A DNA stretch of 46,660 nt from sequence record NC_049829.1; one strand, written 5' to 3'. The notes beneath the pieces are model-generated. The model had not been told where the DNA came from, ran no database searches, and saw only the letters and a list, made by a program, of their open reading frames with translations. Within the stretch, counting starts at the first letter, position 1; the number at the start of each line of letters is the position of its first letter. Below, piece after piece: positions 185 to 43,679 of this stretch. The stretch is from Escherichia phage aalborv. The translations under genes were made by a program, and so were the position numbers.

Positions 185-235
185 AAAATAATTATGCCCG
201 ACACAAGGCAGGGCTTTTTAACAAAAAGTGCTATT
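185..235 (-). promoter_or_regulatory. motif-type promoter module (AATAGCACTTTTTGTTAAAA, 22-bp spacer with inverted repeat, -10 CATAAT)
   Basis: Motif at 216..235; -10 at 191..196; hairpin-capable GCCC..GGGC in spacer. Confidence 0.55.
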
Positions 236-470
236 TTGACGCGGATTCGTAAAACTCTTGCAAGTCTTTACCGATCTGCTCATGCCATTTTTCAAGCGGT
301 AGTTTTCTTGTTTCCTCAAAGCTCATATCAAGCGCGCTTGTAAACTCCCACGGATCGCAATCTAATAGCGGTTTTATGAAATCGTTTTTATCAAGCGCCT
401 CGCAAACCATAGCGCGAAATAACAACCACTCTCCAGTTTCATTTAAACAAACGTTTCTTTCTTTCTTCAT
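231..470 (-). CDS. hypothetical protein (79 aa)
   Basis: ORF track; stop codon TAG is embedded in promoter motif 216..235; start coupled to stop of upstream methylase gene. Confidence 0.5.
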   Translation of the reverse strand: MKKERNVCLNETGEWLLFRAMVCEALDKNDFIKPLLDCDPWEFTSALDMSFEETRKLPLEKWHEQIGKDLQEFYESASK

Positions 471-474
471 GGTT

Positions 475-1176
475 TTAGCTCCGTTTCCGTGCGCGACGCT
501 CTGCTACTGACGGGCAAATGTCGCTGATTTTAATGTATCGCGTTTTCTGCTGCTCACCTTCTTTTAGTTCGCGCATGATGAAAATAACGCTGCCTTTGTT
601 GTTGCCCTGCACTGGTTTACCTGTAAGCGCGGAAGTAAACGCCAGGCGTCCGGTGCGGGAATATTCTGTTCCATCCTCCTGGTAAACTTCGCCAGTGATC
701 CAGATGATTTCCGCTGCTCGCTGTTGCGCTTCATAAAACCATCCTGTTGATGTGTCGCAAGGTAACAGCATGTCGATCTGGTTGTTGCGCTCCATTTGCT
801 CAATCGCCTTCTTAACAAATGGCGTAATATTGCTGTACGGTGGATTCAGCCAGATATGCTTATTACTACCCCACCAACGCTTTAAGCAATTTGTTTCCTT
901 GCTGTAGAATTTTTCACATACGGCATTTTCTTTGCTCGCCGCCGCGTCGATGTCATAATCACCGTATTCGCTTTCCATCCATGCGACAAGCTCAGACGGA
1001 GTAGACCACAAATCGCGCACAATGTCCGGCGTATTGCTGCCGTTATAGCGGTTGCCAGTCACTTTGAAATATTGATTTGGTTTAACAGCCTGGTAATGAC
1101 CACCAGTAGCAAGAGCATTGCCAATGAATGTTTCGAGTTCTATTTGTTCAAATGTCACTTCGGTTTCTTTGCTCAT
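475..1176 (-). CDS. DNA N6-adenine methyltransferase (Dam-like)
   Basis: 233 aa with catalytic NPPY motif (HIWLNPPYSNITPF) typical of N6-adenine MTases; preceded by motif-type promoter 1205..1255. Confidence 0.7.
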   Translation of the reverse strand: MSKETEVTFEQIELETFIGNALATGGHYQAVKPNQYFKVTGNRYNGSNTPDIVRDLWSTPSELVAWMESEYGDYDIDAAASKENAVCEKFYSKETNCLKRWWGSNKHIWLNPPYSNITPFVKKAIEQMERNNQIDMLLPCDTSTGWFYEAQQRAAEIIWITGEVYQEDGTEYSRTGRLAFTSALTGKPVQGNNKGSVIFIMRELKEGEQQKTRYIKISDICPSVAERRARKRS

Positions 1177-1204
1177 TTCTTAATTACCTGTTGCTTGTTG
1201 AATT

Positions 1205-1255
1205 GGTGTTATTATGGCGCAATCCTTCGCGCCTGTTTTAACAAAAAGTGCTATT
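1205..1255 (-). promoter_or_regulatory. motif-type promoter module upstream of methylase gene
   Basis: Motif 1236..1255; 22-bp spacer with GGCGCG..CGCGCC inverted repeat; -10 CATAAT 1211..1216. Confidence 0.55.
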
Positions 1256-1670
1256 TCATCATGTATTCTACAGCGATCATGAATTGCTTATATCCGTATG
1301 TAACGGCGGCGAATCCGCCAAGCTCACGAACGCGGCTCAAAAACGCTCTTTGCTCCTTGCTGACTGGTGAAGCCTTTCCCTTTCCTGATTTGTTTACGCG
1401 CTTCATCTCAATTGCCGCAAACGGATAGCGGCCTTTTAATCCAATCAGGATGATGAAATCACTTACTCCCTTAACAAGTCCGGCTTGCTGGTCCATCATT
1501 GCTGTAGCGATCCCCTTGTCGCCCTCGTTTTTCGTATGCCATGCCAGCAATTCAGGGTAGGCATAAGTCAACCATTGAAACGCCCCGATCTGGTGCGATT
1601 CCTCTTTTAGCGTATCTGTCGGATCTCTTTCGTAAAACTCCAGATAATCGCCTTTATCAGTCATTGCCAT
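1251..1670 (-). CDS. VRR-NUC domain nuclease (PD-(D/E)XK-like)
   Basis: 139 aa; D...E-x-K arrangement (SDFIILIG...AAIEMKR) reminiscent of VRR-NUC family; stop TAG inside promoter motif 1236..1255. Confidence 0.5.
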   Translation of the reverse strand: MAMTDKGDYLEFYERDPTDTLKEESHQIGAFQWLTYAYPELLAWHTKNEGDKGIATAMMDQQAGLVKGVSDFIILIGLKGRYPFAAIEMKRVNKSGKGKASPVSKEQRAFLSRVRELGGFAAVTYGYKQFMIAVEYMMK

Positions 1671-3702
1671 AATTAAATTCCTTCTTGTACAAATTATCTT
1701 CGCCCTTGCTAGTCTTGCGATGAGTCACACGCGATGGCGGCATGATGTGATTCACATATTGCATGATTTTACGCGCATTGCGATAGCTCGCCACCATACC
1801 AGCAATGCGGCGATCTGGTATGTGTTTAAGAGCAACGCTTCGCCATTTTGCGCGGCAAATTTGGCTCTCAGATTCAGGGAAAAATATCTCTCTCGCCTTG
1901 AAAGTATCTATGCCATCGGAAAGCTCATAATTAAATATTATCCCTTTCTGGTTTTTCGTCATGTCAACCGCGAAAGATTGCACCTGGAACCAGTCGTTTT
2001 TTGTGTAGTGCTTTCCGCTTAACTTCTCGTTGGGGTCAATCAATGACATGTCACAATGTCTGCATACCCTGGCCGCAATATCATTTTTCGTTCCACAACC
2101 GCGCTGAATAATCTTTTTAGTGCGCGGGTCAATCTGATCATCACATGTCCTGAATTTAAAGAACCATTCGCATCTGTTGCCGTTTTCGTCTACGTGCATA
2201 CAACGACGAGCATAATAGCTATTAAGAGTTCCGCAAATAGGGCAAGGCTTCGGATCTTTACCATTTCTGAATCGCTTCTGATGCTGCGCCTGTTCCAGTA
2301 TCGGATCAAAATAAAGCTCCCCTAGCTCGTCCATCGTTCCTGAAAAATCCATGACTAGATGATCATCCTTCTGGAATCCTTGCTCCTTATGCCACTTCTT
2401 AAGTAGTCGCATTCCGCGACCTAAAAGCTGAATCAGCAACGTAAGAGATCCAATCTTACGCAGAATAACAGACGTATCCCAAAACGGCACGTTAACGCCA
2501 GTAGTTAGCGCCTGCACCTGGAAGATGTATTTAACCTTTCCCTCGTATGCTTCTTTCAACCACTCCTTGCGCTGGTTATCGCCAGTCTTACCAGTAATGA
2601 TCCTGTAAGTAGTTCCAGGTGGCAACGCTGCCGCTGCCTCTTTGCAATGCCTTTCTCCTGCACATGTCACAAGTACGCCATTGCGGTTTTTACAGATCTC
2701 GTGAACTTTCGCCATGATGCGCTTTGTCATGGTCGCTTCTTCATGAATTTTTTGTTCCATCCTGCGAAGCGTTTTAGCGTCAAAGTCTGCAACTCCATCC
2801 TCACTTGATGCCTCAAACTCTGAAAGGTCATACCCGAGATCGCCAACGTCGCCAAAATTAGTCGGAACAACAGATCCGAACTTGATCAGGTAGTTGGTGT
2901 CAATATTAGTAACCTGCTCACGCCAGAATCCTTTTTGCTTTTTATCTTCTACCAGTATTGGCACTACACCGCGAAACTCTGATCCAGTCATGCCAAATAT
3001 GCGTAGTTCATGACCATATGTTTTCCGGCAACGGCGCATCATTTCCATAATAATGACAGTGTATTGTGTGCGTCCTGTTCCCTCCATTGGCAAGCCATCA
3101 TCACCAATCAGGAACTCTGTATTTCTGTTCCTGCTTCCCTTTGTTATGTTATAATATGGATTTGGTACTTTTTCGCCTTTCTCCGTCGTCATTTGTAAAA
3201 ATGATTCGTCTTTCTCTATTGCGTCGGCAAGGTCTTCCCAATCCACCTGGTGACACTCGTCAATCCCGATAACGTGCGGAACATAGTCGCCAAGCGCTTT
3301 AAACAGTCCATTAACTACAGTTCCCTCAGAACCAACAACGATCGGAAAGTATGCGCTTTTTGTCTTCAGTCCTGCACAATAGATGGAGTTCGGCACACCA
3401 AGATTTGTTATCTCTTCAGAATCCTGATCCACAATCTCAGCCTGGCGAGCAAGGACCATCATTTTCAAGCCCATTTTCCGGCACTGGTGAGCAACCATTG
3501 CAAACATCAATGTTTTGCCAGCCGATACAGACGCTTTAACAAAGAATGGATGCTCATAATTTTTCATACGCTTTGCGATCTCAGCGTATGCAACGCACTG
3601 GTAAGGGTAAGGCACAATCTCGCCAACAGTGAATCGCTCCTGAATGGATTTAATTACCGCTTCACCAAGTGCTGATATTTGCTTTTCAATGTTTGGAATC
3701 AT
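1657..3702 (-). CDS. SF2 ATP-dependent DNA helicase with C-terminal Cys-rich (zinc-ribbon-like) region
   Basis: Walker A (SAGKT), DExH-like box (GIDECHQ), motif VI-like QLLGRGMR; track ORF begins with TTG at 3768 inside the promoter motif, so start moved to ATG 3702 (MIPNIEK) with AAAGG SD; ATG 3726 is an alternative. Confidence 0.75.
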   Translation of the reverse strand: MIPNIEKQISALGEAVIKSIQERFTVGEIVPYPYQCVAYAEIAKRMKNYEHPFFVKASVSAGKTLMFAMVAHQCRKMGLKMMVLARQAEIVDQDSEEITNLGVPNSIYCAGLKTKSAYFPIVVGSEGTVVNGLFKALGDYVPHVIGIDECHQVDWEDLADAIEKDESFLQMTTEKGEKVPNPYYNITKGSRNRNTEFLIGDDGLPMEGTGRTQYTVIIMEMMRRCRKTYGHELRIFGMTGSEFRGVVPILVEDKKQKGFWREQVTNIDTNYLIKFGSVVPTNFGDVGDLGYDLSEFEASSEDGVADFDAKTLRRMEQKIHEEATMTKRIMAKVHEICKNRNGVLVTCAGERHCKEAAAALPPGTTYRIITGKTGDNQRKEWLKEAYEGKVKYIFQVQALTTGVNVPFWDTSVILRKIGSLTLLIQLLGRGMRLLKKWHKEQGFQKDDHLVMDFSGTMDELGELYFDPILEQAQHQKRFRNGKDPKPCPICGTLNSYYARRCMHVDENGNRCEWFFKFRTCDDQIDPRTKKIIQRGCGTKNDIAARVCRHCDMSLIDPNEKLSGKHYTKNDWFQVQSFAVDMTKNQKGIIFNYELSDGIDTFKAREIFFPESESQICRAKWRSVALKHIPDRRIAGMVASYRNARKIMQYVNHIMPPSRVTHRKTSKGEDNLYKKEFNYGND

Positions 3703-3712
3703 TCTAAAACCT

Positions 3713-3740
3713 TTGAGTAATGCCATTTGGCGTGTATAAT
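3713..3740 (+). promoter_or_regulatory. sigma70-like promoter (TTGAGT-16-TATAAT) for HTH-primase operon, divergent and overlapping the helicase promoter
   Basis: -35 at 3713..3718, -10 at 3735..3740; the -10 lies in a palindromic TGTATAATACA shared with the leftward promoter. Confidence 0.45.
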
Positions 3741-3780
3741 ACACAATCATTAAATCATCGTTTAACAAAAAATGCTATTG
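3730..3780 (-). promoter_or_regulatory. motif-type promoter (variant AATAGCATTTTTTGTTAAA) for helicase operon
   Basis: Motif 3761..3780; -10 TATTAT about 3735..3741. Confidence 0.5.
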
Positions 3781-3791
3781 GAGAATGAATA

Positions 3792-4265
3792 ATGAAAGAA
3801 CAGCGAATCGCAGTATCAACTGGCAAGATTGACAAGCGCACAATTAATGGCAATAACGGAACCAGACGAGGCAAGGATAAGAAGAAACGCAAACGCCCTA
3901 CAGGATATTATGTACTAAAAGATGAAGTGCGCGCTGGGCTAAAAGCACGCCTTGACATCCTTATTGAGTATTACGGAAGTGTATCAGCAATGGCAAAACG
4001 TCTTAACGTTAGCCAGCAAACTGTAAATCAGTGGCGTGTTCGCGGTATGATTTCAGCCGCTGGCGCTCAAAAGGTGCATAACGATTACAAAAAGTATGGC
4101 TGTCAAGGCTATCGCGCTTCATTCTGCCGTCCAGATCTGCGATTTGATTCCAATGGAAAACCGCTCACAAAGAGATGTGATAAGCGTGAAATGTTGCGAG
4201 TGGTAAGAATGTCAGATTATGAACCTGGCGGATTCCTGTATAAACCTGAAAGCACTAATTGCTAA
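3792..4265 (+). CDS. helix-turn-helix DNA-binding protein (Cro/YdaS-like HTH), basic N-terminus
   Basis: 157 aa; HTH-like segment SVSAMAKRLNVSQQTVNQWRVRG; GGAGAA SD; followed by intrinsic terminator 4273..4310. Confidence 0.55.
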   Translation: MKEQRIAVSTGKIDKRTINGNNGTRRGKDKKKRKRPTGYYVLKDEVRAGLKARLDILIEYYGSVSAMAKRLNVSQQTVNQWRVRGMISAAGAQKVHNDYKKYGCQGYRASFCRPDLRFDSNGKPLTKRCDKREMLRVVRMSDYEPGGFLYKPESTNC

Positions 4266-4272
4266 AAACAAT

Positions 4273-4310
4273 GCCTGGCATGATGTTATCATCTGTCAGG
4301 CTTTTTTGTT
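4273..4310 (+). terminator. intrinsic terminator after HTH gene
   Basis: Imperfect GC/AT stem GCCTGGCATGAT..ATCATCTGTCAGGC followed by TTTTTTGTTT. Confidence 0.5.
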
Positions 4311-4320
4311 TGAGGTGCAT

Positions 4321-5253
4321 ATGAACAACGAAAACTTTATGGTTTATCAAAAGGAAGATGTTCTCCCATATATGCAGGGATTATGGCGTGAGGCGCTACA
4401 AAGTATTTGCGGTCTTCCAAATGAAGTTTTTAACGGCAAGCATCAATCTTGCCCCCACTGCGGCGGAAAGGATCGCTTTAGATGGACGGATAAACTTGGA
4501 GATAAAAAAGGCGATGGCGGTGCGATCTGCAACGTGTGCGGAAACGATACTGGAATCGGTTGGATCATGAAGCTAACCGGAGAACCTTACAGCGAAGTGA
4601 TCAATATTTTGGGCCGCTTTCTTGGAAAAGTTCCGCAGGACTATAGAATCAAGGCAAATAAGCGAGTATCTCGTGATTCTGGTTATTCGTTTGGGAAACA
4701 GGCAAGCCATGAATGCTGCGAGCGCGTTATGTCAAAAACACTAAAATTTGATCGCACGCCGTTAAGCACATATGAAGGAATATGCCCGCCTGAAGATGGT
4801 CATTATGATTGCGGCGTAAAAGATGGTCGATACATTCACGCGTTACCATGTTACCTTGTGCATTCAGATGATATTGATGATGAAATGTGCAATGTGCTTT
4901 TCATTGATGAAGAAGGTAAACAGTCTTTTCTAGCAAAGGACTACACGCGAGGGTCGATTGTTAGAACCGGAAGTACAGATAAGACTATCTATCTTTGCGT
5001 TGACTGGATTGATGCGCAACATATTCATCTTGCAACTGGTCAGGAGGTTTGGGCCTGTTTTGATGCAACTAACATTGAGATTGTGGCTTACAGGTATAAA
5101 GGCAACAGAAGAATGCGAGTTGTCTGTAAGAGCACAGATCGTGACGCGATCATTGCTGCCGAGGAAAGAGGACTTGAAATTATGATGCCGATTAATGATA
5201 ATTACAGACAAGGGATAGAGAGGAAGGTTTTCAAACCTGAATCTATTCTCTAA
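4321..5253 (+). CDS. DNA primase-like protein with N-terminal C4 zinc ribbon
   Basis: CPHCGG...CNVCGN (C-x2-C-x21-C-x2-C) resembles primase zinc-binding domain; start trimmed from track 4219 to ATG 4321 (GAGGTG SD) because 4266..4310 is a terminator hairpin. Confidence 0.55.
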   Translation: MNNENFMVYQKEDVLPYMQGLWREALQSICGLPNEVFNGKHQSCPHCGGKDRFRWTDKLGDKKGDGGAICNVCGNDTGIGWIMKLTGEPYSEVINILGRFLGKVPQDYRIKANKRVSRDSGYSFGKQASHECCERVMSKTLKFDRTPLSTYEGICPPEDGHYDCGVKDGRYIHALPCYLVHSDDIDDEMCNVLFIDEEGKQSFLAKDYTRGSIVRTGSTDKTIYLCVDWIDAQHIHLATGQEVWACFDATNIEIVAYRYKGNRRMRVVCKSTDRDAIIAAEERGLEIMMPINDNYRQGIERKVFKPESIL

Positions 5254-6366: not shown

Positions 6367-6370
6367 TTGA

Positions 6371-7569: not shown

Positions 7570-7848
7570 TTAGTGTTTTGTTTCTTCTTTAGTGTGTAAT
7601 TTAATAAGATTTTCCATCATGCGATCAGAACTTTCTTTTACCGCCTTGATTGCTTCCTCGTTGTCTTCACTCATTGTCGCAATGAGCACGACGTTATCGA
7701 CTGCATCTATTACTTTTCTGATGTACTCCATTTCTTCTTCGCCTGCTGTTGGATCAAGTGGCTCTACAAAGTCACGAAGCAACATAGCCATGCCAGTTGC
7801 AAAATTGTTGATATGAACTGCTACCTCTGACACTTGTTTGTTTTCCAT
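7570..7848 (-). CDS. hypothetical acidic protein (92 aa)
   Basis: ORF track; degenerate motif-type promoter upstream (7880..7921). Confidence 0.45.
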   Translation of the reverse strand: MENKQVSEVAVHINNFATGMAMLLRDFVEPLDPTAGEEEMEYIRKVIDAVDNVVLIATMSEDNEEAIKAVKESSDRMMENLIKLHTKEETKH

Positions 7849-7879
7849 GTTTATTTCCTTACGCTTATTGTTAACTTAT

Positions 7880-7921
7880 GCGGTGAATTATAACACCGCA
7901 TTTTTCATTTGTTTAGCTATT
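7880..7921 (-). promoter_or_regulatory. degenerate motif-type promoter (AAATAGCTAAA ... TATAAT)
   Basis: -10 TATAAT at 7886..7891 inside inverted repeat TGCGGTG..CACCGCA; partial motif at 7911..7921. Confidence 0.4.
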
Positions 7922-7929
7922 TGTGCTGT

Positions 7930-9415: not shown

Positions 9416-9465
9416 AATAGCACTTTTTGCTAAACGCCTGCTGTAAGATCGTGTATAGTTGCAAC
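9416..9465 (+). promoter_or_regulatory. motif-type promoter (variant AATAGCACTTTTTGCTAAA) for Cor-like gene
   Basis: Motif 9416..9435; -10 TATAGT 9454..9459 after 21-bp spacer. Confidence 0.5.
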
Positions 9466-9490
9466 CAACAACAACGAAGGAGATACCAAG

Positions 9491-9718
9491 ATGAAAAAAT
9501 TAATCGCCGTTTTGATTGCAGCCGTAACCCTGACTGGTTGCGCAAATATGCCTAAACGTGAATGCACGGCTATTTATGAAAATAGCGGTATGCAGTATTC
9601 AGTTGCTATTTTTGGAGTAAAACGAGTTGGCGACCGCACTCTTGTTAAGGCTGGCTATCCGTTTAATTTTCAGTGGGTAAGTATTGATAACTTTAAAAAC
9701 GCTGATTGCAGTCTGTAA
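9491..9718 (+). CDS. small outer-membrane lipoprotein, Cor-like superinfection exclusion candidate
   Basis: 75 aa; signal peptide plus lipobox LTGC; only plus-strand gene between the exonuclease and tail modules; promoter 9416..9465; terminator 9725..9750. Confidence 0.5.
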   Translation: MKKLIAVLIAAVTLTGCANMPKRECTAIYENSGMQYSVAIFGVKRVGDRTLVKAGYPFNFQWVSIDNFKNADCSL

Positions 9719-23799: not shown

Positions 23800-23844
23800 T
23801 TTCTTCCTCCATATATAAAGGTCGTTAGTATGTAACGGACCAAT

Positions 23845-23863
23845 GATAGCATTTTTTGTTAAA
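23845..23863 (+). promoter_or_regulatory. motif copy (GATAGCATTTTTTGTTAAA) in antisense orientation upstream of capsid gene
   Basis: On plus strand between minus-strand genes; no -10 at the usual spacing. Confidence 0.35.
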
Positions 23864-23882
23864 CGTGCAACATAATTTTGTG

Positions 23883-32289: not shown

Positions 32290-32315
32290 TTTGATTTCCT
32301 CTGTTTCGCTTCAAT

Positions 32316-32366
32316 GAGGACACTTTAACAAATGCCCTCGCGGAAGTTTTAACAAAAAATGCTGTT
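32316..32366 (-). promoter_or_regulatory. motif-type promoter (variant AACAGCATTTTTTGTTAAAA), -10 TAAAGT
   Basis: Motif 32347..32366; 22-bp spacer; -10 32322..32327. Confidence 0.45.
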
Positions 32367-33638: not shown

Positions 33639-33662
33639 GTTCAAGTCCTTTCGTTGATTGGT

Positions 33663-33714
33663 GTTTGCATTATAGCGAGGCATTGCGCCCCGCTTTTAGC
33701 AATTCGTGCTATTT
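33663..33714 (-). promoter_or_regulatory. motif-type promoter variant (AAATAGCACGAATTGCTAAAA), -10 TATAAT
   Basis: TTGCTA then 22-bp GC-rich inverted-repeat spacer then TATAAT (33669..33674). Confidence 0.5.
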
Positions 33715-34418: not shown

Positions 34419-34517
34419 GTCGGCAAGCTCTCGAAGGTGACTTGCAGTTTTGGCAATCTCTTAGCTTTTTTCGTCAAATGGTGGCAATTGCATTTAGTTG
34501 TCTCCATGTCTGATTGT

Positions 34518-34568
34518 AGGCCTACTATACAGCAGGCCCGATAATCTGTTTTTGCAAAAAGTGCTATT
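34518..34568 (-). promoter_or_regulatory. motif-type promoter (variant AATAGCACTTTTTGCAAAAA), -10 TATAGT
   Basis: Motif 34549..34568; -10 at 34524..34529. Confidence 0.5.
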
Positions 34569-35362: not shown

Positions 35363-35580
35363 TATTTCACTTCCTCAAATTCAGCAATTACCATAGCGTG
35401 TGCCATAACCTTAGTGCCTTCACCGCCGTTCAGGAACATGCGATGCCCCTTACTATTGCTCACATAAAAAGATCCGGTTGATGATTTCAACTTTTGCGCC
35501 ATATAGATTTCGCCAGGCTTGAACATGCCAGCGCAACCATAGTTAACGGAAATGCATTTCATCTTCTTGTTAATGTACAT
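35362..35580 (-). CDS. hypothetical protein (72 aa)
   Basis: Start moved to ATG 35580 because track TTG start lies inside promoter motif 35636..35655. Confidence 0.45.
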   Translation of the reverse strand: MYINKKMKCISVNYGCAGMFKPGEIYMAQKLKSSTGSFYVSNSKGHRMFLNGGEGTKVMAHAMVIAEFEEVK

Positions 35581-35604
35581 CGTTTTATCTTCTTCATTGA
35601 AAGT

Positions 35605-35655
35605 GAGGCCATTATACCTGGCCCCACATTTGAGTTTTAACAAAAAGTGCTATTT
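35605..35655 (-). promoter_or_regulatory. motif-type promoter, -10 TATAAT in loop of GGCC..GGCC inverted repeat
   Basis: Motif 35636..35655; -10 35611..35616. Confidence 0.55.
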
Positions 35656-35854: not shown

Positions 35855-36040
35855 TTAAAAGAAAGCTACATAGTTTGCAATGCCTTTGGCGTCGTCGTTT
35901 GGCATTGCTTTTACAGCCAGGTCATAACCTTCCTCTACCTTCTGCTTTGCTGTTTCTTCGTTGTAACCCCAGATAACCAGGATTTTAACTACGTTTTCTT
36001 TGTTCAGGATTTTAAGGTCTTTGGTGATGCGACGTGCCAT
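35855..36040 (-). CDS. hypothetical protein (61 aa)
   Basis: ORF track; GAGGAAAA SD within conserved 5'UTR (CATCGAAACGA) of promoter module 36067..36117. Confidence 0.5.
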   Translation of the reverse strand: MARRITKDLKILNKENVVKILVIWGYNEETAKQKVEEGYDLAVKAMPNDDAKGIANYVAFF

Positions 36041-36066
36041 TTTGTTTTCCTCAATCTCGTTTCGAT

Positions 36067-36117
36067 GAGGCTATTATGCCAGGCTTTTACACCTGGCTTT
36101 TAACAAAAAGTGCTATT
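36067..36117 (-). promoter_or_regulatory. motif-type promoter module, exact inverted copy of module 40786..40836
   Basis: Motif 36098..36117; spacer hairpin GCCAGG..CCTGGC; -10 CATAAT 36073..36078; conserved leader CATCGAAACGA. Confidence 0.55.
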
Positions 36118-37495: not shown

Positions 37496-37546
37496 AATAG
37501 CACTTTTTGTTAAAACTGAATCCGCCTGATCGGGTACATTACACAC
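37496..37546 (+). promoter_or_regulatory. motif-type promoter module, first of the rightward early array
   Basis: Motif 37496..37515; -10 TACATT 37535..37540; leader CATCGAAAAGAA. Confidence 0.55.
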
Positions 37547-37575
37547 ATCGAAAAGAACCGATCAGGAGATAGCAA

Positions 37576-37848
37576 ATGAACATCAGCAAAACCACTTTCA
37601 ACTTCGCTAAGCGTCACGGTCTGGATCTGACTGTTGAAGATTTTGGCGATGTTCTGCAACTCTGCATTTGGGAAGCAGATAACGATTGCGAGTGGCTTTG
37701 CTCTTATCGTATCAACTACGATTGCTTGACCTGGCACGGCAATATCTATCTGCCGCAAGAAGTGAAAGAGGAATTGCCAGAAACCATCAACAACGAAGTT
37801 TTTTTGCGCAAAGTCATGAAGTTTATTGCCGAGGAGATCAAGAAATGA
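37576..37848 (+). CDS. hypothetical early protein (90 aa)
   Basis: ORF track; first gene after promoter module 37496..37546; AGGAGA SD. Confidence 0.5.
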   Translation: MNISKTTFNFAKRHGLDLTVEDFGDVLQLCIWEADNDCEWLCSYRINYDCLTWHGNIYLPQEVKEELPETINNEVFLRKVMKFIAEEIKK

Positions 37849-38370: not shown

Positions 38371-38420
38371 ATAGCACTTTTTGTTAAAACTCAATCCTCG
38401 TATTCCTGTACATTACACAC
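38370..38420 (+). promoter_or_regulatory. motif-type promoter module
   Basis: Motif 38370..38389; -10 TACATT 38409..38414; leader CATCGATAACGAA...GAGGATTTGAAA. Confidence 0.55.
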
Positions 38421-38447
38421 ATCGATAACGAATGCGAGGATTTGAAA

Positions 38448-38600
38448 ATGGTTACTCTGATTACCTGGGAACACGAAAACAGCCAGCCGGAAGTGCGCGA
38501 ATTTGAAACTGTAGCCGCTTGTTACAACCTGGCGAAAAATGGCGGCTTCTACAAGGCGCAAATCGTTAACGAATTTGGAGTTGTTGACTATGAGTTCTAA
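38448..38600 (+). CDS. hypothetical small early protein (50 aa, MVTLITWEHENSQ...)
   Basis: Not in track; GAGGA SD in conserved 5'UTR of promoter module 38370..38420. Confidence 0.45.
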   Translation: MVTLITWEHENSQPEVREFETVAACYNLAKNGGFYKAQIVNEFGVVDYEF

Positions 38601-38871
38601 GTTTTACAGCTACACCGACACAGTGGATTTTGAGGGGATACAATTGCCCCTACCTAACAACTACAGGTACATAACTCGTGACCGTTTCGGCTTTATCCAG
38701 GGGTGGCGGAACAAACCAACACACACTGAGTTCGGTATGTCTGGAGGAGAAGAGTTGCCGATCACTTTTGGGCATCAAAGCGGTGAAAATCTTCCGGTTG
38801 TTGCGCGTAAGTATCGTAGACGAAAGATCACAAGACGGCTTATCTCTTTAACTGGATCTGTTGTTGAATAG
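38590..38871 (+). CDS. hypothetical early protein with basic C-terminus (93 aa)
   Basis: Start ATG 38590 (MSSKFYS, GGAG SD) overlapping previous ORF end; stop TAG inside promoter motif. Confidence 0.5.
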   Translation: MSSKFYSYTDTVDFEGIQLPLPNNYRYITRDRFGFIQGWRNKPTHTEFGMSGGEELPITFGHQSGENLPVVARKYRRRKITRRLISLTGSVVE

Positions 38872-38917
38872 CACTTTTTGTTAAAACCGATGCGCCTCTG
38901 ATTGGTATATTAATCGC
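38867..38917 (+). promoter_or_regulatory. motif-type promoter module
   Basis: Motif 38867..38886; -10 TATATT 38906..38911; leader CATCGACAACGAA...GAGGATTTAAAA. Confidence 0.55.
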
Positions 38918-38942
38918 ATCGACAACGAACGAGGATTTAAAA

Positions 38943-39140
38943 ATGGAAAATCAAGTTGATGTTAAAGTTGTACAGCGTGACAAGTCTCACGAAAAAGGTT
39001 TGTTTAAGAAAGGTGCTGAAATCACCATTGACCTTGATGATATGGAGGCGTACCACTCAGGGCTAACTTGGAACGTGCGCAAATGTGAAAACGGCCTGTT
39101 CAAGTTAAATGGCTTTGAAACATACATGGAGATCATTTAA
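38943..39140 (+). CDS. hypothetical early protein (65 aa)
   Basis: ORF track; GAGGATTTAAAA-ATG conserved leader. Confidence 0.5.
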   Translation: MENQVDVKVVQRDKSHEKGLFKKGAEITIDLDDMEAYHSGLTWNVRKCENGLFKLNGFETYMEII

Positions 39141-40079: not shown

Positions 40080-40790
40080 ATGTATAAAGGTTTAATATTC
40101 TCCCTATTTGATGGATCTGGTAAAGCCGTTAAAGATTGGGCTGATAATGGCTATAAGTGCATTTGCTTTAATGCTGACGGCGGCGATCACGGTGATTACC
40201 AGTCAGTGCGCATACAGCATGAGAATATCGAATATGTTAACGTCTGGATTGATGAAAGATTTTACCACCGCGCGCGCTGGGAGGAATGGGGCATTCCTGA
40301 CTTTATTATGGCATTTCCGCCATGCACTGACCTTGCAAATAGCGGATCTCGCCATTGGGCTAAAAAACGCATTGAGAATCCATCGTTCCAGGATGAAGCC
40401 GCCGACACTTGCAAAATAGCTGCGCAAATTGCTGATTATTTCGGTGTTCCGTACATGATAGAGAATCCTGTAGGCAAGCTGTCAACGCTATGGCGCAAGC
40501 CTGATTATACGTTCCATCCGTGCGATTATGCTGGCTATCTGCCGGAAGATGATAAACATCCCGACTTTCCTGATATTATTCCGGCACGGGATCGGTACTT
40601 TAAGAAAACATGCCTTTGGACTGGAAACGGATTTGTTATTCCTCCGCGCGCAACAATCATTCCTAAAGATGGCGACAAGGATAATCCTGGTTGGGCCAAA
40701 ACTGGCGGAAAATCGTCTCGCACAAAGATGATCCGCTCCCTCACACCGCGCGGTTTTGCTCGCGCCGTCTTTGAAGCAAACGCAAAATAG
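40080..40790 (+). CDS. putative compact DNA cytosine-C5 methyltransferase-like protein
   Basis: Start set to ATG 40080 (MYKG, GAGGT SD); FxGxG-like (LFDGSG), PC (FPPCTD) and ENx (MIENPVG) motifs in C5-MTase order; short for the family, so tentative. Confidence 0.4.
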   Translation: MYKGLIFSLFDGSGKAVKDWADNGYKCICFNADGGDHGDYQSVRIQHENIEYVNVWIDERFYHRARWEEWGIPDFIMAFPPCTDLANSGSRHWAKKRIENPSFQDEAADTCKIAAQIADYFGVPYMIENPVGKLSTLWRKPDYTFHPCDYAGYLPEDDKHPDFPDIIPARDRYFKKTCLWTGNGFVIPPRATIIPKDGDKDNPGWAKTGGKSSRTKMIRSLTPRGFARAVFEANAK

Positions 40791-40830
40791 CACTTTTTGT
40801 TAAAAGCCAGGTGTAAAAGCCTGGCATAAT
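40785..40830. repeat. 46-bp exact inverted repeat of promoter module (partner 36073..36118)
   Basis: See partner entry. Confidence 0.85.
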
Positions 40831-40836
40831 CACTTC
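40786..40836 (+). promoter_or_regulatory. motif-type promoter module
   Basis: Motif 40786..40805; spacer hairpin GCCAGG..CCTGGC; -10 CATAAT 40825..40830. Confidence 0.55.
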
Positions 40837-40861
40837 ACCGAAACGAAAGGAGAAATAAACG

Positions 40862-41248
40862 ATGAAAGTTATCTGCAATAAAACCAACGTTTTGATGAAC
40901 GGTCGCTATAAAACCGTATACGAAAAAATCGCTGGTAGCGATGATGTGATCGAGTTGGAACAATTCCAGGTAAAGAGCATTACAAAGGGTAGTAAGTGGC
41001 AAAACGCTGTTGAGTCTGACTATCGTCACATCAAGACAAAAACAATTAAATGCACATTTGTAGATCACAAGATCCCGTGCAAAAAGCATTTCAAAGAAGG
41101 AAAGCGTTACCAGATTGAGCAAGGACGCGCGCTTGGCGCTGTTGCTGGTTATGTGTTTGATGAGTCTGGCGACCGCTGGACGCTATACCGCGAAGAAGTT
41201 GGATTTTCCGCTGGTGGCTGTCATTTGTTTGAGGCTATGTATAAGTGA
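40862..41248 (+). CDS. hypothetical early protein (128 aa)
   Basis: ORF track; AAGGAGAAA SD after promoter module 40786..40836. Confidence 0.5.
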   Translation: MKVICNKTNVLMNGRYKTVYEKIAGSDDVIELEQFQVKSITKGSKWQNAVESDYRHIKTKTIKCTFVDHKIPCKKHFKEGKRYQIEQGRALGAVAGYVFDESGDRWTLYREEVGFSAGGCHLFEAMYK

Positions 41249-41466
41249 TCAAGGCTGAATATCGCTATAAGGTGACTCATTCAGCAACAAAAACCTTCAA
41301 TCCTGGCGATATAGTCAGGCCAATAAAGAAAACGATGGTTGGGTGGCTGACTGGATTCTCATATCACAAATCACTTTACTTTGATTTTGTTGATTCTGTA
41401 ACCGCGCATTGCCATAGTGCAAAGGAACCAGAAAAAATCTTAGTTAGCATAGAGCGGATCAAATAG
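41245..41466 (+). CDS. hypothetical early protein (73 aa), GTG start
   Basis: GTG at 41245 overlaps upstream stop (GTGA); stop TAG inside promoter motif. Confidence 0.45.
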   Translation: MIKAEYRYKVTHSATKTFNPGDIVRPIKKTMVGWLTGFSYHKSLYFDFVDSVTAHCHSAKEPEKILVSIERIK

Positions 41467-41512
41467 CATTTTTTGTTAAATGCGGGTAGCATTGGTGCGG
41501 TATTATTGCCGC
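41462..41512 (+). promoter_or_regulatory. motif-type promoter module (variant AATAGCATTTTTTGTTAAA)
   Basis: TTGTTA 41473..41478; 22-bp spacer; -10 TATTAT 41501..41506. Confidence 0.5.
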
Positions 41513-41534
41513 ATCAAAAAAGGAGTTATCATCA

Positions 41535-43118
41535 ATGAATTTTTCGTTTGAAACCAATAAACTAACACCAAAACAAATTATCGAATTAGCTGATGCACAA
41601 GGATTGTCTCCGGTGCGCGTGTCCATTCAGGCAAACGGATACCGTCAATCGTCCAGCTTTTGGGGTGAGGTTAATGATGTTAATAACGGAAACGATCGCT
41701 ACCCTATAATTTCTCTTGGCAATGATGTTGATGTTGTTGGTAAGTTGGCGCGCAACATTGCTCGATCAGTTCAGTTCCCTGAATCATCGGCATATATGCA
41801 TTTTATCGGCTGCGTGTCTGCTGCAATGCTTGGACGCTTCACGGTTGAGTATCACGGAACGGATCAACCAACTGCTCTTTACGTTGTTACAAGTCAGCCT
41901 CCTTCAACTGGTAAATCTGCCGTTAACAGCCTTGCACTTGCTCCTATGGTTGCTGAGGTAGAAAGAATTAATGATCAGCGAAAGAAGGAACGAAAAAAGA
42001 TTCAGGCAAAGTTGGCAGGTCTTGCAAAGGAAATGAAAAGCGAGCGTTCCGGCGCTGATATGGAATCGCTATACCAGGAGAAAGAAGATCTGGAAGAAAA
42101 ACTGGAAAAGATGTGTGACATTGTTTTCCCTGTCTCCGACACCACGCCGGAAGGACTTGCAAGAATCAACAACCGCCAGGGAAACTTTGCTGTAATTTCA
42201 GACGAGGCAACGAGTATTAACAGCCTTTTAGGTCTGACATATGCCAATAGCGAACGTAAAACCAACAGCGAACTTGTGCTAAAAGCATGGGATCATGGTC
42301 ATGTTTCTATAGCTCGTGCAAACGCTGACAACAATATGAGTTTTAAAGCTCTTGGCTGCATGGCGGTAATTGCCCAGGATGAAACAATCAATGCCATCAT
42401 GGACGCAGGATCACGCGGTATCGGTGTAAGTGAGCGTTATTTGCTTGTGCGTGAGGAATCATTTTTAGGTCGTCGAAAGTTTGTTGATGATAACGGTGAT
42501 TCGACTTATGAGCCTGTTGATGGAGAACTGAAAAGCCAATATTTTAAGCTGATCCATAACATAATGAGCGAATCAAACATCCAGCTTAAGATCAGCAAAT
42601 CAGCAATGCGAGTGCTTAACATGGCTCGTCAGGAGATGGAACCGCACCTTGCCGATGGCGGAAAGTATTCTCATACAATGCTGCGCGGCGCGCTTGGCAA
42701 AATGGATAAGCAGGTGATCAGAATTGCTTCGGTTTTGCACACTATCCGCAATTGGTTTAATCCTGGCGGATACCCTCAAAAGTCGAAAGAGATTGAGGTT
42801 GAAACCGTTCAGGAAGCACTGCTGATGTTTAGCGAGTTGAGCAAAACATACATTAGCGCCGCCAACGCTTCTGGCTATGCTGGTGATGATGCTGAAATGG
42901 GTAAACTAATCGAGATTATCACTCGACACGGTAAGGCTAACAAGGGAATCTTGAATGTGCGAGCCATATATGAGGCTGCGCGAAAAGTTAAGCCTTTTGT
43001 TGGTCAGGCTGGCGTAATGAAGCGCATGGAAACGCAACTGCTGCCGATGCTTGAAGAAAGAAATTATATTTGTGTGATTAATGGCGTTGTTTTTGTAAAT
43101 CCAACATTGCTGGGGTAA
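41535..43118 (+). CDS. P-loop NTPase domain protein (527 aa), function unknown
   Basis: Walker A-like TSQPPSTGKSAV; AAGGAG SD; largest protein of the early block. Confidence 0.6.
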   Translation: MNFSFETNKLTPKQIIELADAQGLSPVRVSIQANGYRQSSSFWGEVNDVNNGNDRYPIISLGNDVDVVGKLARNIARSVQFPESSAYMHFIGCVSAAMLGRFTVEYHGTDQPTALYVVTSQPPSTGKSAVNSLALAPMVAEVERINDQRKKERKKIQAKLAGLAKEMKSERSGADMESLYQEKEDLEEKLEKMCDIVFPVSDTTPEGLARINNRQGNFAVISDEATSINSLLGLTYANSERKTNSELVLKAWDHGHVSIARANADNNMSFKALGCMAVIAQDETINAIMDAGSRGIGVSERYLLVREESFLGRRKFVDDNGDSTYEPVDGELKSQYFKLIHNIMSESNIQLKISKSAMRVLNMARQEMEPHLADGGKYSHTMLRGALGKMDKQVIRIASVLHTIRNWFNPGGYPQKSKEIEVETVQEALLMFSELSKTYISAANASGYAGDDAEMGKLIEIITRHGKANKGILNVRAIYEAARKVKPFVGQAGVMKRMETQLLPMLEERNYICVINGVVFVNPTLLG

Positions 43119-43120
43119 TT

Positions 43121-43513
43121 ATGTTTCTTCTGGATCTGTATCGCTGGTGTGAGTCATTCGAATGGTTTACACGTCAACATATAGCGAAATTTATATTTCA
43201 GCATAGAGAATGTGAGCGGCTCGCAAGGGCCGCAGGATTTACGCCGAGGATGTTTGCAACTGCCGTTTCAAAAGAATTTTGCTCAAGAATGATGACCGCT
43301 GGTTATCTTGATGGAGTTGGTGGAAAGTTCTGGTGTAAGAAAGGATCAGCAAATCGCCCTTTCTCGTTTGAACTTTACAGCCTGGAAGGTATGCAAAACG
43401 AATGGGTAAGAGATGTTTTACGGATCGGAGAAATGAGCGATGAAGAATTGTTTACGTCAAATGCTAATAGACAAAATATTGAAGTTCTGCGCCGTAAGTT
43501 CAATCTCACATGA
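43121..43513 (+). CDS. hypothetical early protein (130 aa)
   Basis: ORF track; GGGG SD. Confidence 0.5.
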   Translation: MFLLDLYRWCESFEWFTRQHIAKFIFQHRECERLARAAGFTPRMFATAVSKEFCSRMMTAGYLDGVGGKFWCKKGSANRPFSFELYSLEGMQNEWVRDVLRIGEMSDEELFTSNANRQNIEVLRRKFNLT

Positions 43514-43634
43514 CGACTTCATGCACGCAATGTTAACGCTCATTCATTCTGACATGCGAGCGTTTGATATATCAGAGCATAATTTGTGTGATGAGGACGG
43601 AGTTTTGTTGGTTACTGTAAAGCGTATTGAATAG
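43440..43634 (+). CDS. hypothetical protein (64 aa) overlapping previous gene out of frame
   Basis: GGAGAAA SD; stop TAG is the TAG of promoter motif 43630..43648; 74-nt overlap with 43121..43513. Confidence 0.35.
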   Translation: MKNCLRQMLIDKILKFCAVSSISHDDFMHAMLTLIHSDMRAFDISEHNLCDEDGVLLVTVKRIE

Positions 43635-43679
43635 CACTTTTGTTAAAACACCCGATCTCGTATCGGGTATATTTGTTTC
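43630..43679 (+). promoter_or_regulatory. motif-type promoter module
   Basis: Motif 43630..43648 (one T shorter); spacer hairpin CCCGAT..ATCGGG; -10 TATATT 43668..43673; leader CATCGAAACGAA. Confidence 0.55.

What the first reader, a model, noticed from the sequence alone, without database searches (positions are those of the whole stretch)
185..43679. Genome-wide conserved 20-bp promoter element with non-canonical geometry
About 19 intergenic copies of AATAGCACTTTTTGTTAAAA (variants TTGCTA/TTGCAA) occur in the gene orientation. A TAtAaT-like hexamer (CATAAT, TATATT, TACATT, TATAAT, TATAGT, TATTAT) follows at a fixed 21-22 bp after TTGTTA, then an SD and ATG within about 30-45 nt. A 22-bp spacer is too long for sigma70 -35 recognition, and the -35 position is occupied by AAAAnn. 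This suggests a dedicated phage promoter class, perhaps activator-dependent in the manner of T4 MotA-type sigma appropriation, or a UP-like element substituting for -35. The motif's 5' end (TAA-ATAG or TAG) supplies the stop codon of the upstream gene in most copies.
Basis: partly seen in the sequence, partly recalled or inferred. Interest (0 to 1): 0.85.

Follow-up and report, generated by a model that had tools for sequence, protein, structure and literature searches.

The report
T1-like phage promoters carrying marboxes
About nineteen copies of a 20-base repeat in this T1-like coliphage are the upstream halves of compact promoters, and the repeat closely matches the DNA site bound by the host's MarA/SoxS/Rob stress regulators, so the phage probably borrows those host proteins to switch on its early genes.

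Summary
The window is a T1-like coliphage (Drexlerviridae, Hanrivervirus). It has 19 strong copies of AATAGCACTTTTTGTTAAAA. In 17 of them a TATAAT-like hexamer follows at a fixed distance, then a conserved C-A start dinucleotide, a leader of about 25 nt, a Shine-Dalgarno site and ATG.

The repeat is not new. A 2024 paper on phage TLS describes the same 21-nt repeat (aaATAGCACnnnTTGnTAAAA) in T1-like phages and lists its function as an open question.

What I add is that the repeat matches the E. coli marbox, the MarA/SoxS/Rob binding site. It matches 10 of 10 specified positions of gcannwwntgnnaaa. It is in forward orientation, 18 bp from the -10 hexamer, spanning about -50 to -31. The host micF promoter, the class II model solved with Rob, SoxS and RamA, has the same 18-bp spacing.

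The architecture holds at about 80 sites in T1, TLS, Rtp and Klebsiella phage KP36, and is absent from lambda and T7. No phage-encoded AraC-family protein was found.

Best reading (confidence 0.55): these are class II activator-dependent sigma-70 promoters served by host Rob, MarA or SoxS. No experiment supports this yet, and no TSS or binding data were found. The hairpins in the promoter spacers remain unexplained.

The parts
158..234 (-). Promoter module 1: marbox 215-234, -10 CATAAT 191-196, predicted start ~184, ATG 158 (ORF runs off the left edge)
1176..1254 (-). Module 2: marbox 1235-1254, -10 CATAAT 1211-1216, predicted start ~1204, ATG 1176 (Dam methyltransferase 475-1176). A hairpin GGCGC/GCGCC lies in the spacer
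   Evidence: Pfam Dam
3702..3778 (-). Module 3: marbox ATAGCATTTTTTGTTAAACG 3759-3778, -10 TATTAT 3736-3741 (17-bp spacing), ATG 3702 (helicase operon). It is divergent from the Cro-like gene
4249..4323 (+). Module 4: marbox AAAGCACTAATTGCTAAAAA 4249-4268 (contains the stop codon of the Cro-like gene), -10 TATCAT 4287-4292, ATG 4321 (primase-like ORF to 5253)
7848..7929 (-). Module 5: marbox ACAGCACAAATAGCTAAACA 7910-7929, -10 TATAAT 7887-7892 in the loop of hairpin GCGGTG/CACCGC, ATG 7848 (92-aa ORF, then Erf and SSB)
9417..9493 (+). Module 6: marbox ATAGCACTTTTTGCTAAACG 9417-9436 (0 mismatches to AYnGCACnnWnnRYYAAAYn), -10 TATAGT 9454-9459, ATG 9491 (75-aa lipoprotein-like ORF)
20085..20128 (+). 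Antisense copy between the major tail gene and the tail-chaperone gene: marbox 20085-20104, weak -10 TAGCAT 20123-20128, pointing into a bidirectional terminator hairpin. Position and orientation are conserved in T1 (18831, minus strand)
23843..23870 (-). Sense-strand sigma-70-like promoter of the major capsid gene (TTGCAC 23865-23870, 16-bp spacer, TATCAT 23843-23848). Its spacer is a reverse-oriented marbox (23846-23865, read on the plus strand). The same arrangement occurs in T1 and TLS
32289..32365 (-). Module: marbox ACAGCATTTTTTGTTAAAAC 32346-32365, -10 TAAAGT 32322-32327, ATG 32289
33638..33712 (-). Module: marbox ATAGCACGAATTGCTAAAAG 33693-33712 (the 'G-type' variant), -10 TATAAT 33669-33674, ATG 33638
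34493..34567 (-). Module: marbox ATAGCACTTTTTGCAAAAAC 34548-34567, -10 TATAGT 34524-34529, ATG 34493 (only a 10-codon ORF follows)
35580..35653 (-). Module: marbox 35634-35653, -10 TATAAT 35611-35616 flanked by GGCC arms, probable ATG 35580
36040..36116 (-). Module: marbox 36097-36116, spacer hairpin GCCAGG/CCTGGC, -10 CATAAT 36073-36078, ATG 36040
37497..37578 (+). Module: marbox 37497-37516, -10 TACATT 37535-37540, predicted start ~37547 (CAT), ATG 37576. This is the first rightward early gene
38371..38450 (+). Module: marbox 38371-38390, -10 TACATT 38409-38414, ATG 38448
38868..38945 (+). Module: marbox 38868-38887, -10 TATATT 38906-38911, ATG 38943
40787..40864 (+). Module: marbox 40787-40806, spacer hairpin, -10 CATAAT 40825-40830, ATG 40862
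41463..41537 (+). Module: marbox ATAGCATTTTTTGTTAAATG 41463-41482, -10 TATTAT 41501-41506, ATG 41535 (527-aa helicase-like ORF)
43631..43709 (+). Module with a 1-nt deletion in the T run (ATAGCACTTTTGTTAAAAC, 43631-43649). The B-box keeps its register with -10 TATATT 43668-43673. ATG 43707

Best explanation
Each copy is the upstream half of a compact sigma-70 promoter of the class II, activator-dependent type. The conserved 20-mer is a consensus marbox.

Proposed mechanism:
1. A monomeric two-HTH AraC-family activator of the host binds at about -50 to -31. Its A-box (GCAC) is promoter-distal and its B-box (TGyTAAA) lies over the -35 region. The most likely activator is the constitutively expressed Rob, with MarA or SoxS when induced, and RamA in Klebsiella.
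2. The activator replaces the sigma region 4 / -35 contact and recruits RNA polymerase to a TATAAT-like hexamer exactly 18 bp downstream.
3. Transcription starts at the conserved C(-1)A(+1), 7 nt after the hexamer. This gives a leader of about 25 nt, then the SD and ATG.

The modules start at, or on, the stop codon of the preceding gene. They are placed every 0.5-2 kb along both early arms and the replication genes.

Shown here: motif identity, orientation, spacing, family-wide conservation, and absence of a phage AraC homologue.
Inferred: that these are active promoters, where transcription starts, and which protein binds.
For: 1. Sequence match. The window has 18 perfect matches to the published marbox definition gcannwwntgnnaaa (PMC12052159), against 1.5 expected (maximum 5) in dinucleotide shuffles. 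Lambda has 1 and T7 has 0.

2. Unbiased site selection. 92 sites in five Drexlerviridae genomes were picked by Hamming distance to the phage repeat, with 0 hits in shuffled genomes. G4, C5, A6, G13, A16 and A17 are 99-100% invariant. Almost all variation falls on positions that are degenerate in the marbox (7 C/T; 8; 9 and 10 A/T; 14 C/T; 20). The invariant positions are those contacted base-specifically by Rob in the micF complex (-47G, -45A, -38G, -35, -34; PMC9178005). A-box mutations cost 7-100-fold in affinity, against 2-4-fold for the B-box (PMC8279559).

3. Direct comparison with host sites. The micF marbox ACAGCACTGAATGTCAAAAC is followed by exactly 18 bp and then TAGAAT. The mar operon marbox ATGCCACGTTTTGCTAAATC is 17/20 identical to the KP36 copy ATAGCACGTTTTGCTAAAAC.

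4. Geometry. A -10-like hexamer sits at offset 18 in 69 of 90 sites and at offset 17 in 10 of 90, against about 1 of 90 at other offsets. Orientation is forward and the centre is about -40.5. [quoted passage not shown]

5. Promoter hallmarks. G(-14) in 64/81, C(-1) in 51/81, A(+1) in 65/81, median leader 25 nt.

6. Conservation. The architecture is conserved in T1, TLS, Rtp and KP36 although the spacers are unrelated in sequence. The repeat is multi-copy in about 1000 phage records, nearly all listed under Enterobacteriaceae hosts.

7. No phage-encoded AraC/MarA homologue. phmmer against the six-frame translation found nothing. Pfam found none among the 45 small or unassigned ORFs. tblastn of MarA against 50,697 phage records gave no Klebsiella or Shigella phage hits and no T1-like phage among the 30 listed.

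8. Canonical sigma-70 promoters are not enriched in the early arms: 26 found against 35 expected. The TLS authors found only three. So a pre-existing host factor fits immediate-early expression.
Against: - No experimental datum: no TSS map, binding assay or host-mutant phenotype was found.
- The match was recognised post hoc, not by a systematic scan of all transcription-factor motifs.
- T11 is invariant (92/92) although it is 'n' in both published consensus forms. Position 19 is mostly A, not Y, although micF also has A there. The true binder could therefore have a slightly different specificity.
- From general knowledge: MarA and SoxS are scarce and unstable without inducers, and Rob is largely sequestered, yet T1-like phages grow fast on ordinary laboratory strains.
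- Good -10 hexamers with G(-14) or TG (46%) could give substantial activator-independent activity.
- The conserved spacer hairpins are not predicted by this model.
Confidence: 0.55

Rival explanations
1. The modules are activator-dependent promoters, but the protein that binds the repeat is phage-encoded and unrelated to AraC. It would be an unrecognised early protein or the Cro-like HTH protein at 3792-4265, and the resemblance to the marbox would be convergent or coincidental (a MotA-like cascade).
For: - The extra invariant positions T11 and A1-A3 are not required by the marbox consensus.
- Every family member keeps a conserved 'transcriptional regulator' next to the helicase promoter.
- That gene has no forward marbox upstream, and a TGTATAAT sits on its own strand, so it could be immediate-early (sequence inspected).
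- Dozens of small early ORFs have no assigned function.
Against: - The regulator has a single Cro-type HTH, with best PDB matches to Cro proteins. Such proteins bind symmetric operators as dimers, whereas the repeat is asymmetric and bipartite with 7-bp A-box/B-box spacing.
- Marbox promoters also precede the first genes of both early arms, so a phage activator would have to be made before them.
- The match to the marbox covers sequence, orientation and the exact 18-bp spacing seen at micF.
Confidence: 0.2
2. The modules are activator-independent promoters. Sigma-70 holoenzyme uses the strong or extended -10 and the A/T-rich T-tract/A-tract of the repeat as a UP-like or weak -35 (TTAAAA) contact, with no dedicated activator.
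For: - G(-14) occurs in 79% and TG in 46% of modules, and the hexamers are close to consensus.
- TTTTT-N3-AAAA resembles the UP-element pattern. This was also suggested by the TLS authors.
- The scan tool reads TTAAAA-18-TATAAT as a promoter at 35640-35611.
Against: - It does not explain the 100% invariance of G4-C5-A6.
- About a third of copies (GCACGAATTGCTAAAA) have no T tract.
- The element lies at -51 to -32, about 8-10 bp downstream of where UP subsites sit, and over the -35 region.
- TTAAAA would need a 19-bp spacer.
Confidence: 0.15
3. The repeat is not a promoter element. It would be a roadblock or 'stoperator'-type repressor site, part of a terminator or RNA-processing signal for the upstream gene, or a recombination or boundary signal.
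For: - The TLS authors raised stoperators.
- The repeat begins on the stop codon of the upstream gene in 14 of 19 copies.
- It is followed by conserved hairpins, some of which are annotated as terminators in T1.
- Two copies are antisense to the flanking genes.
Against: - The fixed 18-bp register to a -10 hexamer, the conserved CA start and the uniform leader to SD/ATG in about 80 sites are not expected for a roadblock or RNA signal.
- The window encodes no detected integrase or CI-type repressor among the families shown.
- No Rfam family matches.
Confidence: 0.05

Closest known systems
Intergenic 21-nt direct repeats of T1-like phages (TLS 'DR' elements; German, Kropinski, Misra et al. 2024, PMC11447400)
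   Same: It has the same sequence (aaATAGCACnnnTTGnTAAAA) and a similar copy number (18 intergenic copies in TLS, 19 here). [quoted passage not shown] The T, G and A subtypes of the central triplet are also present.
   Different: That paper leaves the function open, offering stoperator, enhancer site or UP element. It does not report the fixed -10 hexamer, the conserved start dinucleotide, the spacer hairpins or the marbox identity.
Class II MarA/SoxS/Rob (RamA) promoters of Enterobacteriaceae, e.g. micF
   Same: Both have an asymmetric 20-bp box with A-box GCAC and B-box YAAA 7 bp apart. Orientation is forward and the box overlaps the -35 region, centred near -41. The spacing to the -10 hexamer is 18 bp, there is no recognisable -35, and the -10 is canonical.
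   Different: Host marboxes are degenerate and occur once per promoter. The phage carries 14-20 near-consensus copies per ~48-kb genome, fused to the upstream stop codon and to spacer hairpins. Binding and activation by the host proteins are untested.
T4 middle promoters (MotA box plus AsiA sigma appropriation)
   Same: A phage promoter class that lacks a -35 hexamer, keeps a sigma-70 -10, and depends on a factor bound in the -35 region.
   Different: From general knowledge, the MotA box is (a/t)(a/t)(a/t)TGCTTtA centred at -30, 11-13 bp from the -10. Here the motif is different, spans -50 to -31, and no MotA or AsiA domain was found among the 45 small or unassigned ORFs.
UP elements (alpha-CTD sites) of strong promoters
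   Same: An A/T-rich T-tract/A-tract upstream of the core promoter.
   Different: UP elements lie at -59 to -38, upstream of a -35 hexamer, and have no GCAC core (general knowledge). The phage element overlaps the -35 position, and many copies lack the T tract.
MarA-repressed promoters with a reverse marbox inside the core promoter (rob, purA, hdeA; recalled from the literature, not re-read here)
   Same: The copy at 23846-23865 is a reverse marbox filling the 16-bp spacer of a sense-strand TTGCAC/TATCAT promoter upstream of the major capsid gene. The same arrangement occurs in T1 and TLS.
   Different: No evidence that this capsid promoter is used or repressed. KP36 has a degenerate version.

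Membership tests
Class II MarA/SoxS/Rob (marbox) promoter | Asymmetric ~20-bp marbox with A-box GCAC and B-box (TG)nnAAA / YAAA separated by a 7-bp A/T-rich segment | tested here: met
   18 perfect matches to gcannwwntgnnaaa against 1.5 expected. 16 of the 19 strong copies have <=1 mismatch to AYnGCACnnWnnRYYAAAYn, and the other three have 2 (that consensus is recalled from Martin et al. 1999).
Class II MarA/SoxS/Rob (marbox) promoter | Forward orientation (A-box promoter-distal), overlapping the -35 region and centred near -41 | tested here: met
   The marbox ends 18 bp before the -10 hexamer in 69/90 sites and 17 bp before it in 10/90. micF has the same 18-bp spacing. The position is relative to a predicted, not a mapped, start site.
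Class II MarA/SoxS/Rob (marbox) promoter | No recognisable -35 hexamer, canonical -10 hexamer | tested here: met
   The -35 position is AAAAnn. Hexamers are TATAGT, CATAAT, TATTAT, TATAAT and similar, as described for class II promoters in PMC10268841.
Class II MarA/SoxS/Rob (marbox) promoter | Bound by MarA, SoxS or Rob, with transcription dependent on them | not testable with these tools
   Needs EMSA or footprinting, in vitro transcription, reporter fusions, and a marA soxS rob host.
Drexlerviridae 21-nt intergenic direct repeat (TLS DR) | Consensus aaATAGCACnnnTTGnTAAAA, multi-copy, intergenic, in the direction of transcription, about 76 nt upstream of start codons | tested here: met
   There are 19 copies, 17 co-directional with the downstream gene, 75-82 nt from box start to ATG. 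The phage is a Hanrivervirus.
T4 MotA-dependent middle promoter | MotA box centred at -30 (11-13 bp from the -10), plus phage MotA and AsiA proteins | tested here: not met
   The motif and its position differ. No MotA or AsiA Pfam domain was found among the 45 small or unassigned ORFs.
UP element | A/T-rich alpha-CTD site at -59 to -38, upstream of a -35 hexamer | tested here: not met
   The element spans about -51 to -32 and has an invariant GCAC. G-type copies lack the T tract.
Extended -10 promoter | TG at -15/-14 immediately upstream of the -10 hexamer | tested here: inconclusive
   TG in 37/81 modules and G(-14) in 64/81. It is present in many copies but not universal.
Sigma-54 promoter | TGGCAC-N5-TTGC with GG and GC 12 bp apart | tested here: not met
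   The phage has AGCAC-N3-TTGY, so the spacing is 2 bp too short and AG replaces GG (sequence).
Stoperator (mycobacteriophage L5 type) | Asymmetric repressor sites within transcription units of a temperate phage that encodes the cognate repressor | tested here: inconclusive
   No integrase or CI-type repressor appears among the Pfam families shown. The strict register with the -10 hexamer and start site argues for a promoter element. Binding was not testable.

The most novel reading that the evidence does not exclude
Virulent T1-like phages (Drexlerviridae) run most of their early and middle transcription on the host's MarA/SoxS/Rob (RamA) stress and antibiotic-resistance activators, through 14-20 near-consensus class II marbox promoters per genome. 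A reverse marbox inside the capsid-gene promoter makes the same host factor a repressor of a late promoter. Titration of the factor by replicating phage DNA would then contribute to the early-to-late switch. Phage gene expression would be coupled to bile, oxidative or antibiotic stress and to mar/ramA-type multidrug-resistant hosts.
Probability: 0.3. Interest if true: 0.85.

Novelty: new member of a known kind. Interest (0 to 1): 0.62.

Why it matters
The authors of the TLS archetype paper list the function of this repeat among the unanswered questions for T1-like phages. Recognising it as a class II marbox turns that question into a few simple experiments.

If host Rob, MarA or SoxS do drive these promoters, this would, as far as I found, be the first virulent phage family shown to wire its early programme to the mar/sox/rob regulon. 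Consequences for Drexlerviridae, which are widely isolated against E. coli, Klebsiella and Shigella:
- Salicylate, bile salts, redox drugs and antibiotics that induce these regulators could modulate phage growth.
- Multidrug-resistant strains that over-express MarA or RamA could be better hosts.
- Hundreds of high-affinity marboxes on replicating phage DNA could titrate the regulators away from efflux genes.

The analysis also yields about 80 natural, compact (~75 bp) promoter-leader modules of graded sequence.

Tried and rejected
1. Phage-encoded MarA-like activator: rejected. phmmer with MarA and SoxS against all six-frame ORFs gave no hit with E below 0.4. Pfam scans of the ORFs found no HTH_18/AraC domain among the 45 small or unassigned ORFs; one search showed only 25 of 55 families. 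tblastn of MarA against 50,697 phage records hit no Klebsiella or Shigella phages and no T1-like phage among those listed.

2. T4 MotA/AsiA mechanism: no homologues found, and the box and position are wrong.

3. UP element: wrong position and cannot explain GCAC.

4. Sigma-54 (-24/-12): spacing is 2 bp short and there is no GG.

5. Sigma-32: the CCCCAT seen after some hexamers is about 30 bp from the TTG, and it is really the 3' arm of a hairpin.

6. TTGTTA as a -35 hexamer: a 21-22-bp spacer is too long.

7. Class I marbox role for the two antisense copies: the distance to the start codon (about 56-64 nt) leaves no room for a -62 site plus a leader.

8. Rfam: no family in the window.

9. Literature:
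- No paper contains the exact motif string other than by chance.
- No paper links T1-like phages or Drexlerviridae with the marbox, MarA, SoxS or Rob.
- No TSS or transcriptome data for a Drexlerviridae phage were found. The one candidate preprint profiled a T5-like phage.

10. Cro-like protein 3792-4265 as the binder: it has a single Cro-type HTH, so it is unlikely for an asymmetric bipartite site, though not excluded.

Full report
**What the window is.** The 46.6-kb window is almost a whole genome of a T1-like siphovirus. The terminase-portal region is 98% identical to Escherichia phages damhaus and grams. The early region is about 90% identical to phage JakobBernoulli, which is classified Drexlerviridae; Tempevirinae; Hanrivervirus. 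The structural genes run leftward from about 30,200 to 10,000. Two arms of small early genes diverge from about 37,000-37,500. Replication genes lie at 1-9,000.

**Checking the observation.**
- AATAGCACTTTTTGTTAAAA occurs 15 times at <=3 mismatches, against 0.02 expected.
- It occurs 18 times at <=5 mismatches.
- One more variant was found with a degenerate pattern, giving 19 strong copies.
- In 17 copies a hexamer with A at position 2 and T at position 6 (TATAGT, CATAAT, TATTAT, TATAAT, TACATT and similar) begins 18 bp (13 copies) or 17 bp (4 copies) after the 20-mer counted from ATAGCAC.
- The start codon follows 22-32 nt after the predicted start site.
- In 14 of 19 copies the stop codon of the upstream ORF is TAG at positions 2-4 of the box, a TAA that abuts the box or overlaps it by 1 nt, or, in one case, a stop inside the box.

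**The repeat is already in the literature.** A full-text search led to the 2024 re-annotation of phage TLS (PMC11447400). That paper reports 18 intergenic copies of a 21-nt direct repeat, aaATAGCACnnnTTGnTAAAA. The copies lie in the direction of transcription, about 76 nt upstream of start codons, with A, T and G subtypes. The repeat is also present in T1, Rtp and Rogue1. The authors found only three sigma-70-like intergenic promoters. They suggested stoperators, enhancer sites or UP elements, and listed the function of the repeat as an open question.

**What the repeat matches.** The core GCACTTTTTGTTAAA matches all ten specified positions of the E. coli marbox as defined by the Grainger laboratory, 5'-gcannwwntgnnaaa-3' (PMC12052159).
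- The window holds 18 perfect matches, against 1.5 (maximum 5) in dinucleotide shuffles. T1, TLS, Rtp and KP36 hold 14-20 each. Lambda has 1 and T7 has 0, and neither has a -10 at the right distance.
- To avoid circularity I re-selected sites by Hamming distance (<=4) to the two common phage forms. This gave 92 sites in five genomes and none in shuffled genomes.
- In those sites G4, C5, A6, G13, A16 and A17 are 99-100% invariant. Variation is confined to positions 7 (C/T), 8, 9-10 (A/T only), 14 (C/T only), 19 and 20. These are the degenerate positions of the marbox consensus, and the variation stays within the allowed base classes.
- The invariant positions are those read base-specifically by Rob in the Rob-RNAP-micF structure: -47G and -45A in the A site; -38G, -37T, -35 and -34 in the B site (PMC9178005). 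A-box substitutions cost 7-100-fold in Rob affinity, against 2-4-fold for the B-box (PMC8279559).
- Real host sites read from MG1655: the micF marbox is ACAGCACTGAATGTCAAAAC. The mar marbox is ATGCCACGTTTTGCTAAATC, which is 17/20 identical to the KP36 copy ATAGCACGTTTTGCTAAAAC.

**Geometry.** Published class II MarA/SoxS/Rob/RamA promoters have a forward-oriented marbox overlapping the -35 region and centred near -41. They lack a recognisable -35 hexamer and keep a canonical -10.
- In micF the marbox is followed by exactly 18 bp and then TAGAAT.
- Among 90 phage sites, a -10-like hexamer starts at offset 18 in 69 and at offset 17 in 10. Every other offset from 0 to 59 has 0-7.
- Aligned on the hexamer, G is at -14 in 64/81, TG is at -15/-14 in 37/81, C is at -1 in 51/81 and A is at +1 in 65/81. 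The leader to the start codon has a median of 25 nt, mostly 20-34.
- The 18-bp spacers are unrelated in sequence between sites and between phages. Selection therefore acts on the box, the distance and the hexamer.

It is the canonical geometry of class II marbox promoters.

**Who binds.**
- No AraC-family protein is encoded. phmmer with MarA and SoxS against all six-frame ORFs gave nothing below E = 0.4. My recalled MarA sequence was validated by a 95% match to a Salmonella fragment.
- Pfam scans found no HTH_18/AraC, MotA or AsiA domain among the 45 small or unassigned ORFs. The scan of all 74 ORFs showed only the first 25 of 55 families.
- tblastn of MarA against 50,697 phage records returned 136 hits. 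None were to Klebsiella or Shigella phages, and no T1-like phage appeared among the 30 listed, although hundreds of Drexlerviridae are in that collection.
- The only recognisable regulator is a 157-aa protein with a single Cro-type HTH at 3792-4265. Its best PDB matches are Cro proteins. That type normally binds symmetric operators as a dimer.
- Canonical -35/-10 promoters are not enriched in the early arms: 26 against 35 expected.
- The repeat is multi-copy in about 1000 phage records of 44-53 kb, nearly all listed under Enterobacteriaceae hosts; 21 are labelled Campylobacter. From general knowledge, Enterobacteriaceae carry Rob, MarA and SoxS, and some carry RamA.
- Rob is constitutively expressed at a high level.

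A pre-existing host activator is therefore the most economical reading. Rob would act by default, and MarA or SoxS when induced. This step is inference; nothing here measures binding or activity.

**What the model does not explain.**
- T11 is invariant (92/92) although it is unspecified in both consensus forms. Position 19 is mostly A, as in micF.
- About 70% of 81 modules contain a stable inverted repeat (mean z = -2.9 against shuffles). It lies either wholly within the spacer or with arms flanking the hexamer, so that the -10 sits in the loop.
- At what I take to be orthologous promoters upstream of the Erf gene, the arms differ but pairing is kept: GCGGTG/CACCGC here, GAGGTG/CACCTC in T1, GATGCGTG/CACGCATC in TLS, GGGGTA/TACCCC in Rtp.
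- Some of these hairpins are annotated as terminators in the T1 record. They may be leaky terminators or 3'-end stabilisers for the upstream cistron, embedded in the next promoter. That is speculation.

**The two antisense copies.** Both are conserved in position and orientation in T1, and one also in TLS.
- The copy at 23846-23865 is, on the sense strand, a reverse marbox filling the 16-bp spacer of TTGCAC...TATCAT just upstream of the major capsid gene. T1 has TTGACG-N17-TATTAT and TLS has TTGAAC-N16-TATATT with the same insert. A reverse marbox inside a core promoter is the arrangement I recall for MarA-repressed promoters. It suggests, without proof, that the early activator also holds down a late promoter.
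- The copy at 20085 points into a bidirectional terminator and could make only a very short RNA.

**Verdict.** The MotA-like and UP-like mechanisms are not supported. The element is a known repeat of T1-like phages. My best explanation is that it is a class II marbox promoter served by host Rob, MarA or SoxS. That explanation was not found in the searched literature, and subscription-only papers could not be searched. Confidence that the modules are promoters is about 0.9. Confidence that the host mar/sox/rob activators are the binders is about 0.55.

Noticed in passing
window 23843-23870 (minus strand); T1 L002 ~15060-15095; TLS L003 ~15015-15050: A sense-strand sigma-70-like promoter for the major capsid gene (TTGCAC-N16-TATCAT) has a reverse-oriented marbox as its spacer. 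T1 and TLS share this arrangement, and KP36 has a degenerate version. This is a repression-type geometry and a possible early/late switch.
   Followed up: partly
spacers of the modules, e.g. window 36079-36096, 7880-7905, 41490-41515; 81 modules in L002-L005: GC-rich inverted repeats lie inside the 18-bp spacer or flank the -10 hexamer in about 70% of modules (mean z = -2.9). Arm sequences differ but stay complementary at what appear to be orthologous promoters. Some are annotated as terminators in the T1 record. Their function is unknown.
   Followed up: partly
window 20085-20165 (plus strand): An antisense marbox with a weak -10 (TAGCAT) points into the bidirectional terminator after the major tail gene. 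It could yield only a ~30-40-nt RNA. The copy is conserved in T1 (18831, minus strand).
   Followed up: no
predicted leaders, e.g. window 38420-38447, 36041-36066, 43680-43706: The first transcribed bases are conserved (C-A-T-C-G-A-A-A-C-G-A), followed by an A-rich leader of uniform length (~25 nt). In several copies the 5' end (CCTCAT or TTTCAT) can pair with ATGAGG of the Shine-Dalgarno region.
   Followed up: no
window 3730-3750: The perfect palindrome GTGTATTATACAC is centred on overlapping divergent -10 hexamers (TATTAT on the minus strand, TATAAT on the plus strand) between the helicase operon and the Cro-like regulator gene. It is a plausible operator for that regulator, and similar sequences occur in T1, TLS and KP36.
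   Followed up: no
window 34461-34493 (minus strand): The marbox promoter at 34548 is followed by only a 10-codon ORF (MQLPPFDEKS). The same N-terminal words begin the Erf-region gene in T1, so this may be a truncated remnant that kept its promoter.
   Followed up: no
window 14169-14188 and 28101-28120 (minus strand): These are degenerate marbox-like copies without a -10 at the fixed distance. The first sits directly on the SD/ATG of the tail-tip J gene and is conserved in T1 and TLS. The second lies 4 bp before a TATAAT and a terminator-like hairpin upstream of the portal gene.
   Followed up: partly
window 43631-43649 (plus strand): One copy has a single-T deletion that shortens the A-box/B-box spacing to 6 bp, while the B-box keeps its register with the -10. 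It is a natural test case for bipartite recognition.
   Followed up: no
window ~36,900-37,500: The two early arms diverge here with no long ORF. A near-consensus TTGACA-17-AATAAT lies at 36907-36879 (minus strand). The window is circularly permuted relative to the T1 map, so this region probably corresponds to the genome ends or pac region.
   Followed up: no
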